A DNA stretch of 64,000 nt from Mytilus edulis (taxonomy: Eukaryota), in contig NC_092347.1 of assembly GCF_963676685.1 (NCBI RefSeq), forward strand, positions 6,262,001 through 6,326,000, written 5' to 3'. Made by a program: the position numbers. Below are positions 27,001 to 30,000 of the stretch, in pieces. Each line of letters opens with the position of its first letter. Within the stretch, counting starts at the first letter, position 1.

Positions 27001-30000
27001 GTATTTTGTCTTGCATTAAAGGGGGACAAATCCTAAATCTTACAAATTTAGACCTCTATGAGTCAAAAGCAGATTCAGACTTATTTATGTCTGAGCTCTG
27101 ACTGATTATAACATGTATAAAGGATTCGTAGCTTTTTATGAAAAAATTTCAGAACTGAAATAATTCCTCTCATAAAACATTTGTGTAAAAGGTACATCTG
27201 GTTTTGTATGTTGTACACTTTAATATACATGTATATACTTACTTATATCTACTTCTTGACATGATAAACATGTACAATGCAAAATGTACTGAACCATCCC
27301 AATAACAAATGGAGGTCCCATGTGGGGTTTTCAGGTAAGGTTCCCCTTGCAAGAGGTAGAAATGTAGATATCTACCGAGATAGCCATCATTCTCAAGGGC
27401 AATAACTACATCAACCATGGAGGAAAACAAAAGAATGCTCCATGCTACAAAAAATATTGAGTTTGGATTTAATATGTTCAAGCTCATATATAATTCTACT
27501 CAAGACAAAGAAATTTTCTTTTTATGCACAATACATGTACATGTATGTAAAAAACTAAACATGCTGTGAGGGTACAGACCATATACAGACAAAGATCAGG
27601 CATGAAGATCACCCATGAAGATCACACATGAAGAAAAGATCATGCATGAAGATCACCCATGAAGATCACACATAAAGAAAAGATCATGCATGAAGATCAC
27701 CCATCATGCCCATGAAGAGGCATTTTTCTTTTAACCAAATCTGCTCCTAGAACAACCAGAAGTAAAAATGTACATGCAATTTTCATATAAAACTGTTAAC
27801 CCAATTTTCATGCATAATTTAACTTTTCAGCATGTAAACATAGAAACAACTGATGTTAATTCCAATGTAGATGCACAGATTTCAAAATGTGAAGGTTTAT
27901 GCTTCTTTTGAGTTGGACATGTTGGATATACAACTTCAAAACTGGAATGCAGTTGCATAAGTCATATGTACCTATAGTTCACATTTTATCAAATTGTAAT
28001 TAAAAACATTTGATAGACAACTTTTAGGCAAAGTTATTGTGTAGACGTACTTAACAATGGAAAAGAGGAGTTTATTGTAAGTGACCATGGTAACTAGAGA
28101 ACCCCAATCTCAACTATAAGAAATAATTTCCAAATCAACAATAGCCAGTAGAAAAAAATATTTGATGATCTCATTCTGAAATACATGACCATGATGAGTA
28201 GTTAAAGAAGAGATACAGAACTAAATGTTACAAGCAGATACAGTCTGTGATATTGATAAGTACAACCACATCAAAGGTTAGGTAATATGAAATTCACAAT
28301 ACATGCAAACACAACATATACAGGATATATATGGAGTACAGTGAGGCCTCTCTTGAATGAAATTCTATTTTACATTGTTAATGTTATTGCATATTGGTCT
28401 CATATAGCATGTATAACAATAATACTATGAGCATGATGAATCAGGGAGAAGTTGGAAATTTCAAAGAACCATGCAGTTACACAGCAAAACAAAACATCTA
28501 CAAGCCAACATCTGGTATCAGACACATAATTGTCAAGATCTGAATCGCCCTTTGCTTGACTCTATTGATTATAGTAATGAACTGAAAGCATGTACAATGT
28601 ACCTGTCTAAATGTATTTAAATAGAGGGTAAATCTATAATCTCCTTTTCAAAGAATTCCAAGATATTGCTGAAAGAATTTATGAGAAATGAAAAAAAATA
28701 ATTACTTTAAAAATTTACTCTTACTAAACTGAGTTGATGCAGACATGATAAAGTGATACTGGATGATAGGCCAAGCTTAGACTTACTCATAAATTTTCCT
28801 TGACAGAATAAATAAAACCAAAGCAAAGTGTATGGTACCATCCCAGTAGTTGATCATAGTTCCAAAAGGAGTTTTCAGATAAGGTTCTCCCTGCAGAAGG
28901 TAGAAATGCATGTATTTCCCAATGTAACCATCATTCTCTAAGGCAACAGTTGTATCCACTAAAGAAGCAAAAAGGAAAATACTCCAAACTGAAATGTATA
29001 AATAAACAAACATGAGGTGCATTGTTCTTCATGTACATGTAGTAATGATATACAACTTTTAAGCATAGCCAAAAATCCATGGAGCTTACAACATGTACAA
29101 TTTCAAAATTCAAATAGTTATAAGATGTCATAATAAAAAATTCTGCGCCCTGAAAAAGTTATCAACATTTCAAATTTAAGTGACAAAACTGATTTGAAAT
29201 AAAGAGCACTAGAAAAAATAGTCATGTCCGTTAAGTCTGTCGGTCTGGTAACTCCATCCATCCCATAACTCTGCCCCTTTACTCTCTTGTGCCTTTCTTC
29301 CAAAATTATTTCGTCTGCTATATTATTTTAACTTTAGACATGTTAGAGAAGAAACCCGTTTGTTTACATCAGATCAAAGGGAGACAATGCAAGTAGATAC
29401 CCATGAAAAAGAAAAGTGCAAAACACTACATTTTCCAACTTTAAATTAGGTCATTATATGGTTTTCAAAAGTCATTTTCGGCTACCATTAGCGTCAAATT
29501 GGTTAAAATTTTACTGTGATGTACTTAAAAATATCCTTATCGTTATTCAACAGAGGTCTTAAATAAATATCGTTAGAGTCATTTAGGTGTTAAAATCATT
29601 CATTTTTTTTTATCATCTAAACGAAAGTGTACATTTTATTGTCATGCACCAAAAATAATTAGTTAACGTCATTTGACAAGAATTTTTTTACCATTATTTG
29701 TCATGAAGGTACCCCCAAAAATTATTTACTACCCTCAAGATGGCATAACAACATGAAACCATTAAGTGAAAAAATCTCATTTAGAGAGCAGGAATATTTA
29801 CCGTTGTAAAAAGGGTCATGTTTTGGTGGACCGTCACTGAAATACAACCGAGGTACCAGGAAAACGACAAGCAGAGACACGACGCCTACTGCAAATATTG
29901 CTGCTGCATTGTCTACTCCACCAATCACTTTCATCAACAGTAGAATGGGAAATGCTAAACATGCTGAAAGGACTGACACCTGAAATCTTGTTAATACCAT

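What the first reader, a model, noticed from the sequence alone, without database searches (positions are those of the whole stretch)
27243..28988. Duplicated mutually exclusive exon pair swapping the core of the first EXPERA domain in TM6SF
Seen: two homologous exons, both exactly 202 nt, same phases, intact splice sites, no stops, 47/66 aa identical by hand count with many synonymous differences. Including both or neither shifts the frame. Differences sit next to conserved motifs (PFGTMINYWDGTIH vs PHGTSICYWDGSVH). Known: vertebrates have two genes, TM6SF1 and TM6SF2; EXPERA is the sterol-isomerase/sigma-2-receptor fold. Inference: this lineage makes two sterol-pocket variants by splicing rather than gene duplication. 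I know of no description of this.
Basis: partly seen in the sequence, partly recalled or inferred. Interest (0 to 1): 0.7.

Follow-up and report, generated by a model that had tools for sequence, protein, structure and literature searches.

The report
Mussel TM6SF gene swaps duplicated exons
A blue-mussel gene for a cholesterol-binding membrane protein carries two old, intact copies of one exon and uses one or the other, giving two protein versions that differ only in two membrane helices beside the sterol pocket; databases already list both forms, but I found no paper describing them.

Summary
On the minus strand, exon 2A (28787..28988) and exon 2B (27243..27444) are both 202 nt, with AG/GTAAGT sites and the same phases. 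They share 47/66 codons and 136/202 bases.

The window is Mytilus edulis. Every exon translation is an exact substring of RefSeq XP_071166507.1 (isoform X1, has 2A) or XP_071166508.1 (X2, has 2B). The pair is therefore already annotated, also in M. galloprovincialis and M. californianus. Five literature searches found no description.

Including both exons, or neither, gives an early stop codon. Silent sites are saturated (pS 0.78, pN 0.20). mRNA-length contigs from two further mussel-like taxa carry either variant.

Exon 2 encodes TM3, helix alpha1 and TM4, the first half of the first EXPERA domain. The sterol-contact residues named for vertebrate TM6SF1/2 are identical in both variants, so "two sterol-pocket variants" is not shown. 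An interface change is an equally good reading.

New here: RefSeq isoforms of a gastropod (Gigantopelta) and a nemertean (Lineus) swap the same segment, apparently through independent duplications.

Verdict: a real mutually exclusive exon pair, and a new member of a known kind.

The parts
29802..30000 (-). Exon 1 coding part: ATG at 30000, 199 nt, ends with 1 base (G) of a split codon; donor GT.
   Evidence: The translation M1..N66 is an exact substring of P0066 and P0078.
28787..28988 (-). Exon 2A, 202 nt, residues 67-134 of isoform X1 (TM3, alpha1, TM4).
   Evidence: AG/GT sites. The translation is an exact substring of P0066 (XP_071166507.1) and not of P0078.
27445..28786 (-). Intron between 2A and 2B, 1342 nt. 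It holds a 44-nt tandem repeat (27583..27704, 2.8 copies).
   Evidence: No similarity to the flanks of the other copy beyond short chance-level matches.
27243..27444 (-). Exon 2B, 202 nt, residues 67-134 of isoform X2.
   Evidence: AG/GT sites. The translation is an exact substring of P0078 (XP_071166508.1) and not of P0066.
24636..24718 (-). Exon 3, 83 nt. Its first base T completes GA+T = Asp after 2A or AA+T = Asn after 2B.
23764..23855 (-). Exon 4, 92 nt.
22980..23096 (-). Exon 5, 117 nt.
22618..22710 (-). Exon 6, 93 nt.
21631..21756 (-). Exon 7, 126 nt.
19478..19720 (-). Exon 8 coding part, 243 nt including the TGA stop.
   Evidence: With one copy of exon 2 the coding exons sum to 1155 nt = 384 aa plus stop.

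Best explanation
This is the single TM6SF gene (clade II) found for Mytilus edulis. It has eight coding exons on the minus strand.

Exon 2 was duplicated in tandem in the mussel lineage and both copies have been kept. Each mRNA carries 2A or 2B, giving two 384-aa proteins that are identical except at 21 positions within residues 67-134. That stretch is TM3, the short alpha1 helix and TM4, the first half of the first EXPERA domain.

Exclusivity is enforced at least by the reading frame. Because 202 is not a multiple of 3, transcripts with both exons or with neither hit an early stop. These are expected (inferred) to be removed by nonsense-mediated decay, or to give only N-terminally truncated products.

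Both variants keep the residues that contact cholesterol in vertebrate TM6SF1/2. I therefore infer that both are sterol-binding scaffolds, and that the swap retunes two things. One is the second shell of the pocket (N113C and V124Y lie on the D116/H120 face). The other is the outer surface of TM3/TM4, which in mouse TM6SF2 forms the dimer-dimer contact.

Shown: anatomy, frame logic, purifying selection, conservation of both copies, presence of both forms in annotation and in relatives' transcripts. Inferred: NMD, and any functional difference.
For: - Anatomy and frame.
- Each exon translation matches RefSeq M. edulis X1 or X2 exactly.
- The same X1/X2 pair is annotated in M. galloprovincialis (P0076/P0003) and M. 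californianus (P0001/P0080).
- Selection: pS 0.78 against pN 0.20.
- Conservation, M. edulis against M. californianus: 2B 66/68, 2A 63/68, rest of the protein 285/316.
- Unnamed contigs of 1.2-2.3 kb, too short for anything but spliced mRNA, carry one or the other variant. P0096 against P0099 is 294/295 identical outside the segment and 54/68 inside. P0101 against P0005 is 245/248 outside and 46/56 inside.
- Isoform X3 models in two species contain both exons and start from an out-of-frame ATG in 2A, as the frame logic predicts.
- The AF2 models of the two isoforms have the same helices and equal confidence over the swapped part (pLDDT 87.2 and 85.4).
- The protein matches solved TM6SF1 at E 1.3e-68. 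The fold matches the sigma-2 receptor (TM-score on target 0.72-0.74, probability 1.00) and EBP.
- Pocket residues and the TM2-TM4 interface are taken from the preprints 10.64898/2026.04.01.715928 (sections 5, 6, 10 read) and PMC13648352 (first part of section 4, and section 10, read).
Against: - I saw no RNA reads for M. edulis itself. The RefSeq isoforms are computed models whose evidence I cannot inspect.
- Overall identity does not show that the B exons of the three mussel taxa are orthologous. M. edulis B against T2 B is 47/68; against T2 A it is 48/68. Only K91R and N113C (plus A74S in two taxa) are shared B marks.
- The A/B split has weak tree support: 57/90 and a B clade at 91/89.
- No coordinates were available, so no residue was placed in 3D. 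The helical-face proxy failed for TM3 (p 0.92) and was marginal for TM4 (p 0.047).
- No splicing regulator or competing RNA structure was found. The inverted repeats are short, AT-rich or palindromic.
Confidence: 0.8

Rival explanations
1. The swap is a sterol-specificity switch: 2A and 2B build two different sterol pockets and so take the place of a second gene.
For: The exon holds the positions matching the EBP triad, and TM3-TM4 line the cholesterol cavity. N113C and V124Y sit on the same helical face as D116/H120 (offsets +24 and +44 degrees). Position 124 is Tyr in 20 of 23 outgroups, Tyr in 2B and Val in 2A. Position 108 is His in 19 of 23 outgroups, His in 2B and Phe in 2A. In Gigantopelta, one alternative segment replaces the Asp78-equivalent with Ser.
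Against: All five named pocket residues inside the exon are identical in 2A and 2B. Six of the eight TM4 differences lie 84 degrees or more off the conserved face. The serine that hydrogen-bonds the sterol hydroxyl, and the TM5-TM6 aromatic residues, lie outside the exon.
Confidence: 0.3
2. The swap mainly changes the outer surface of TM3/TM4. That would alter oligomeric state or partner binding, in the way vertebrate TM6SF1 (dimer, lysosome) differs from TM6SF2 (tetramer, ER).
For: In mouse TM6SF2 the dimer-dimer interface is formed by TM2-TM4. A swapped TM2 packs on TM3 and TM4 of the neighbouring protomer. TM6SF1 stays dimeric (PMC13648352, first part of section 4 and section 10). Most TM4 differences are off the pocket face. 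There are seven differences in TM3 and three just after TM4.
Against: The interface residues named for TM6SF2 that can be aligned (F73; Y121, which is F121 in the mussel) do not differ between 2A and 2B. Nothing is known about oligomers of mollusc TM6SF. No interface was modelled here.
Confidence: 0.3
3. One copy is a relic, or serves mainly as a poison exon. On this reading the real role of the second copy is to lower output through frame-shifted, decay-prone transcripts containing both exons.
For: RefSeq X3 models in M. galloprovincialis and M. californianus contain both exons. Reading both gives a stop after 10 codons of 2B.
Against: A poison exon need not keep 66 codons open and under purifying selection (pN 0.20 against pS 0.78). 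2B is at least as conserved between Mytilus species as the rest of the protein. Full-length B-type mRNAs exist in relatives.
Confidence: 0.08
4. This is an assembly or haplotype artefact, with two alleles placed in tandem.
For: None beyond the general frequency of such artefacts in heterozygous bivalve assemblies (recalled, not tested).
Against: The copies differ at 66 of 202 bases and have unrelated flanks. The same pair is annotated in three species' assemblies and occurs in transcripts of other taxa.
Confidence: 0.01

Closest known systems
Mutually exclusive exons born by tandem exon duplication. Examples seen as search listings: PMC3228551 for prediction criteria, PMC6071210, PMC8373072, and the oyster alternative oxidase duplicated exon, PMC5589949.
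   Same: Adjacent homologous exons of equal length, with the same phases and intact sites, one used per mRNA. The length is not divisible by three, so the frame enforces the choice.
   Different: The host gene, TM6SF, has no such event in the papers I could search. No competing RNA structure or regulator was found. The same exon seems to have been duplicated independently in three lineages.
Vertebrate TM6SF1 and TM6SF2 (PDB 10up and 11br; preprints 10.64898/2026.04.01.715928 and PMC13648352).
   Same: Ten helices, two EXPERA halves, and a cholesterol pocket with an Asp/Asn78, acid116, His120 core. The mussel protein matches TM6SF1 at E 1.3e-68 over residues 12-358.
   Different: Vertebrates diversified by whole-gene duplication, whereas mussels vary only TM3-alpha1-TM4 by splicing. 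Sterol binding, localisation and partners of the mussel protein are untested.
EBP and the sigma-2 receptor/TMEM97 (single EXPERA domain).
   Same: The fold. The best structural matches of the model are 7m93/7m96 (TM-score on target 0.72-0.74, probability 1.00) and 8w0r/6oht (probability 0.95-0.97).
   Different: Foldseek E-values are only 0.6-1.8. TM6SF1 and TM6SF2 showed no sterol isomerase activity in the preprints.

Membership tests
Mutually exclusive exon pair from tandem exon duplication | Neighbouring exons of one gene that are homologous to each other | tested here: met
   47/66 aa and 136/202 nt identical with no gaps. tblastn finds exactly two copies.
Mutually exclusive exon pair from tandem exon duplication | Same length, same splice phases, intact splice sites | tested here: met
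   202 nt each, AG...GTAAGT, phase 1 in and phase 2 out.
Mutually exclusive exon pair from tandem exon duplication | Mature mRNAs carry exactly one of the two (window species) | tested here: inconclusive
   RefSeq M. edulis X1 has 2A only and X2 has 2B only. These are computed models, and no reads were available to me.
Mutually exclusive exon pair from tandem exon duplication | Mature mRNAs carry exactly one of the two (relatives) | tested here: met
   Contigs of 1.2-2.3 kb encode full-length proteins with either variant: P0096 against P0099/P0097/P0098, and P0101 against P0005.
Mutually exclusive exon pair from tandem exon duplication | Including both exons or neither is non-productive | tested here: met
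   Stop after 10 codons of 2B with both exons, and after 14 codons of exon 3 with neither. Decay of these transcripts was not tested.
TM6SF family | Sequence homology over the whole length to TM6SF1/2 | tested here: met
   E 1.3e-68 to PDB 10up_A, residues 12-358. 62 and 148 family hits in the two protein searches.
TM6SF family | Ten transmembrane helices; EXPERA halves TM3-6 and TM7-10 | tested here: met
   The AF2 models (pLDDT 87.2 and 85.4) have ten long helices: 5-26, 32-53, 65-85, 107-129, 135-161, 168-189, 210-233, 258-282, 290-313, 328-354.
TM6SF family | Core positions matching the EBP triad (Asp78, Glu116, His120 in mouse TM6SF2) | tested here: met
   D78, D116 and H120 in both 2A and 2B. 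This rests on the alignment (hand count), and the preprint text.
TM6SF family | Binds cholesterol in the TM1-6 pocket | not testable with these tools
   Needs purified protein.
EXPERA superfamily (Pfam PF05241) | Pfam model above its gathering score | tested here: inconclusive
   Only the second half matches (residues 239-352), at 21.4 bits against a cut-off of 25.7. The exon peptides alone give no hit. The database's precomputed domains list PF26083 for these proteins.
EXPERA superfamily (Pfam PF05241) | Four-helix EXPERA fold | tested here: met
   Foldseek matches to the sigma-2 receptor (TM-score on target 0.72-0.74, probability 1.00) and EBP (probability 0.95-0.97), with weak E-values of 0.6-1.8.

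The most novel reading that the evidence does not exclude
The exon encoding TM3-alpha1-TM4 of TM6SF is a recurrent hotspot. It was duplicated independently in mussels, in a deep-sea gastropod (Gigantopelta) and in a ribbon worm (Lineus). Each time it gave a splice-selected pair that recreates within one gene the kind of specialisation vertebrates reached with two genes: a different oligomeric state, compartment or sterol preference, set by exactly the module that distinguishes TM6SF1 from TM6SF2.
Probability: 0.2. Interest if true: 0.7.

Novelty: new member of a known kind. Interest (0 to 1): 0.5.

Why it matters
TM6SF2 is a major human fatty-liver gene. Structures of TM6SF1 and TM6SF2 appeared only in 2026 preprints, and what the sterol pocket and the TM2-TM4 surface do is still open.

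Mussels (and apparently Gigantopelta and Lineus) offer natural swaps of exactly TM3-alpha1-TM4 on an otherwise identical protein. Comparing the two isoforms for bound sterols, oligomer state, localisation and partners would test which property that module sets.

It is also a clean case of repeated exon-level, rather than gene-level, diversification of a membrane sterol-binding fold.

Tried and rejected
- Pfam on the exon peptides alone gave nothing.
- Search for docking/selector-type RNA pairing around the exons: one search lists 37 inverted pairs. Those near the exons are 15-27 nt, 70-88% complementary, AT-rich or built on the palindromic CATGTACATG motif. I treat them as chance, and there was no second genome to test conservation.
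- Flanking-intron similarity between the two copies: only short matches that are out of register (D2, D17).
- dN/dS could not be computed because silent sites are saturated.
- The helical-face proxy for pocket-facing positions was uninformative for TM3 (permutation p 0.92) and marginal for TM4 (p 0.047).
- Conservation at differing against identical positions is not significantly different (0.61 against 0.69, Mann-Whitney p 0.14).
- The Foldseek PDB copy (entries to April 2026) did not return the TM6SF1 entries.
- Of 8 isoform or near-copy pairs from other taxa, 6 were not exon swaps. Dreissena, Branchiostoma and Pecten differ by small indels. Antedon has an N-terminal truncation. Sinanodonta and Ruditapes show scattered differences.
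- No tRNA genes were found.
- Complex prediction, the protein atlas and the representative search were not used, because no binding claim is made.
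Full report
**What is in the sequence**

The feature lies on the minus strand. Exon 2A spans 28988..28787 and exon 2B spans 27444..27243. Both are 202 nt, both follow an AG, and both are followed by GTAAGT.

Each begins with two bases that finish a codon started in exon 1. Each ends with two bases of a codon finished by exon 3.

- Of the 66 whole codons, 47 encode the same residue.
- 136 of 202 bases are the same, and there are no gaps.
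- The 63 base differences within the 66 whole codons fall 19, 9 and 35 on codon positions 1, 2 and 3.
- By Nei-Gojobori, pS is 0.78 (saturated, so no dS or dN/dS can be given) and pN is 0.20.

**Which gene and which organism**

I searched the spliced model exon by exon and left the joined step out. The window's exons were never joined. Full-length comparisons use database proteins that tools returned.

- The 2A peptide, searched against longer proteins, found 5 proteins among 16 candidates. They include RefSeq 'transmembrane 6 superfamily member 1-like' isoforms of Mytilus.
- tblastn of two of these against the window laid out eight coding exons and found only two copies of exon 2. All other extra hits had E >= 0.14.
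- I fixed the boundaries by eye and script:
  - exon 1: 30000..29802
  - exon 2A: 28988..28787
  - exon 2B: 27444..27243
  - exon 3: 24718..24636
  - exon 4: 23855..23764
  - exon 5: 23096..22980
  - exon 6: 22710..22618
  - exon 7: 21756..21631
  - exon 8: 19720..19478
- All introns are GT-AG. With one copy of exon 2 the total is 1155 nt.
- Every exon's translation is an exact substring of XP_071166507.1 (P0066, M. edulis isoform X1, with 2A) or XP_071166508.1 (P0078, isoform X2, with 2B).

The window is therefore Mytilus edulis, not human. Both alternatives are already in RefSeq.

**Is either copy dead, and is the choice exclusive?**

- The same X1/X2 pair is annotated in M. galloprovincialis (P0076/P0003) and M. 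californianus (P0001/P0080).
- Between M. edulis and M. californianus, 2B keeps 66/68 residues and 2A keeps 63/68. The rest of the protein keeps 285/316. Neither copy is drifting.
- Two clusters from unnamed sources are about 71-76% identical to Mytilus. Their contigs are 1.2-2.3 kb long, so they must be spliced mRNA, and they carry one variant or the other.
  - P0096 and P0099 are 294/295 identical outside the segment and 54/68 inside it.
  - P0101 and P0005 are 245/248 identical outside and 46/56 inside.
- If both exons are read, a stop comes 10 codons into 2B. If neither is read, a stop comes 14 codons into exon 3.
- RefSeq 'X3' models of M. galloprovincialis and M. californianus contain both exons. 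They begin at an out-of-frame ATG near the end of 2A and run into the normal frame of 2B. The window encodes the same path.
- I saw no reads for M. edulis itself. Exclusivity in this species rests on computed models plus the frame logic. Decay of the frame-shifted forms is inferred.

**Age and origin**

In a tree of the 68-residue segment, all A and B segments of the mussel group form one clade (100/100). That tree had 37 rows; I left out the partial P0098. Oysters, scallops, ark and pearl shells and other molluscs fall outside the clade. The same result came from a 46-row tree. The duplication is therefore specific to this mussel lineage.

Saturated silent sites and unrelated flanks say it is old.

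Whether one duplication predates the three mussel taxa is likely but not firm.

- For: B-type segments share K91R and N113C in all three taxa, and A74S in two. A is one side of a branch in 96% of 200 bootstrap trees, though support is only 57/90. A B clade is not rejected (AU p 0.45). B forms a clade at 91/89.
- Against: overall identity of M. edulis B to T2 B (47/68) is no higher than to T2 A (48/68).

**What the exon encodes**

- The protein matches solved TM6SF1 (PDB 10up, 11br) at E 1.3e-68.
- AlphaFold models of both isoforms, each built from a 43-row alignment, agree (pLDDT 87.2 and 85.4; pTM 0.86 and 0.85). They have the same ten long helices.
- Residues 67-134 cover TM3 (65-85), alpha1 (94-105) and TM4 (107-129).
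- Foldseek's best hits are the sigma-2 receptor (TM-score on target 0.72-0.74, probability 1.00) and EBP (probability 0.95-0.97). The E-values are weak, at 0.6-1.8.
- Pfam's EXPERA model reaches only the second half of the protein and falls below its cut-off (21.4 against 25.7 bits).

The two 2026 preprints say the following. Of 10.64898/2026.04.01.715928 I read sections 5, 6 and 10 and searched passages. Of PMC13648352 I read the first part of section 4, and section 10.

- EXPERA-1 is TM3-TM6.
- Cholesterol sits in a pocket bounded by TM1-6.
- In TM6SF1 the positions matching the EBP triad are N77, residue 115 and H119. In mouse TM6SF2 they are D78, E116 and H120.
- F72 and Y95 also line the pocket.
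- The TM6SF2 dimer-dimer interface is TM2-TM4.

By the alignment (my hand count) these positions are Mytilus F73, D78, Y96, D116 and H120. All five are identical in 2A and 2B.

The 21 differences are at positions 67, 71, 74, 76, 79, 80, 81, 89, 91, 93, 108, 111, 113, 118, 119, 124, 125, 128, 131, 132 and 134.

Each exon mixes ancestral and derived states.

- 2B keeps His108, which is His in 19 of 23 outgroups.
- 2B keeps Tyr124, which is Tyr in 20 of 23 outgroups.
- 2A keeps Met93, which is Met in 22 of 23 outgroups.
- 2A keeps Phe71, which is Phe in 17 of 23 outgroups.

A helical-face proxy was useless for TM3 (p 0.92). For TM4 (p 0.047) it puts positions 113 and 124 on the D116/H120 face and the other six differences 84 degrees or more away.

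'Two sterol-pocket variants' is not shown. A change of the outer TM3/TM4 surface is at least as likely.

**Splicing instead of gene duplication?**

- Two protein searches returned only this one gene for Mytilus. One query was a Mytilus protein: 62 hits among 6103 candidates. The other was a Haliotis paralogue: 148 hits among 8000 scored candidates, 120 listed.
- I built a full-length tree of 38 rows with the quick method. Eight rows were left out: five B forms, Gigantopelta X2, Lineus X2 and the long-branched Arion_2.
- The tree shows two molluscan clades.
  - One holds a gastropod paralogue plus heterodont and unionid bivalves (SH-aLRT 95).
  - The other holds octopus, chiton, the second gastropod paralogue and pteriomorph bivalves including Mytilus (SH-aLRT 94).
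However, absence of a second mussel gene rests on word-seeded searches only.

**A wider pattern**

I compared eight isoform or near-copy pairs from other taxa. Two are same-length swaps of the homologous segment:

- Gigantopelta aegis X1/X2: 37 differences, all within residues 73-138 of 386.
- Lineus longissimus X1/X2: 20 differences, all within residues 77-133 of 378.

The other six pairs are small indels, a truncation or scattered differences.

In the segment tree each pair stays within its own lineage. Lineus groups with another nemertean at 98/88. Both Gigantopelta forms fall in the gastropod paralogue-1 group at 93/95. A sister relation within each pair is not rejected (AU p 0.21 and 0.43). 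That points to three independent duplications of the same exon.

One Gigantopelta variant has Ser at the Asp78 position. These are RefSeq models, and I could not check their DNA.

**Literature**

Five searches touched the topic and none of the papers listed describes this event:

- TM6SF with 'mutually exclusive' (57 papers, 15 listed).
- 'mutually exclusive exons' with Mytilus (5 papers).
- TM6SF, exon duplication and mollusc terms.
- 'transmembrane 6 superfamily' with Mytilus (2 papers).
- EXPERA with splicing terms.

Most subscription journals are not covered.

A duplicated, alternatively spliced exon is described for oyster alternative oxidase (PMC5589949, listing and abstract only). General criteria for such exons are in PMC3228551 (listing and abstract only).

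**Not checked**

- DNA of other molluscs could not be examined.
- RNA reads were not available.
- Figures and supplementary files of the preprints could not be seen. They may list more pocket and interface residues.
- 3D placement of the differing residues was not possible, because no coordinates were available.

**Verdict**

This is a real, old, selectively maintained pair of alternative exons in the mussel TM6SF gene. It is already present in automated annotation and apparently undescribed in print. It is a new member of a known kind, and the same module seems to have been duplicated repeatedly in other lineages.

Noticed in passing
RefSeq proteins P0223/P0130 (Gigantopelta aegis) and P0226/P0157 (Lineus longissimus); no window coordinates: Isoform pairs of equal length differ only in the segment homologous to mussel exon 2 (37 and 20 differences). 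The tree places each pair in its own lineage, which suggests independent duplications of the same exon. One Gigantopelta variant has Ser at the Asp78 position.
   Followed up: partly
Full-length TM6SF tree: Molluscs show two TM6SF clades. The sampled pteriomorph bivalves (mussels, oysters, scallops, ark, pearl oyster) appear only in one clade, and heterodont and unionid bivalves only in the other. Gastropods have both.
   Followed up: partly
P0072, P0070 (RefSeq isoform X3 of M. galloprovincialis and M. californianus); window 28787..28853 and 27243..27444: These models contain both exons. They start at an ATG in another frame near the end of 2A and read on into 2B's normal frame, giving N-terminally truncated proteins.
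   Followed up: partly
P0075 (M. edulis CAG2257700.1, 435 aa): This older gene model fuses part of 2A in frame to 2B, so the protein has the motif region twice. It looks like a prediction error caused by the duplicated exon.
   Followed up: no
window 27583..27704: A 44-nt tandem repeat (2.8 copies, 93% matches) lies in the intron between 2A and 2B.
   Followed up: no
window 91..594 and 8181..8657, + strand: Two similar open frames match Pfam Ninjurin (E 3.5e-17 and 3.4e-14). They are probably exons of two tandem ninjurin-like genes.
   Followed up: partly
window 12923..16668 (+) and 52605..54975 (-): Long open frames carry reverse-transcriptase domains (RVT_1, E 1.7e-33 at 15781..16668 and E 3.7e-31 at 52605..54338). 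They are retrotransposon copies or remnants.
   Followed up: partly
window 34226..35603; 62328..63999; 5665..6252; 35952..36267; 47688..48149: These are satellite-like arrays: 99 nt x 13.9, 37 nt x 45.4 (runs to the window's end), 161 nt x 3.7, 91 nt x 3.5 and 91 nt x 5.1. The 99-nt array produces a spurious 344-aa open frame at 34604..35638 on the minus strand.
   Followed up: no
Preprint 10.64898/2026.04.01.715928, section 5, against the PDB 10up_A alignment: The text names 'Glu115' in the TM6SF1 core. The chain as aligned by HMMER starts its second block at residue 115 with Asp.
   Followed up: no
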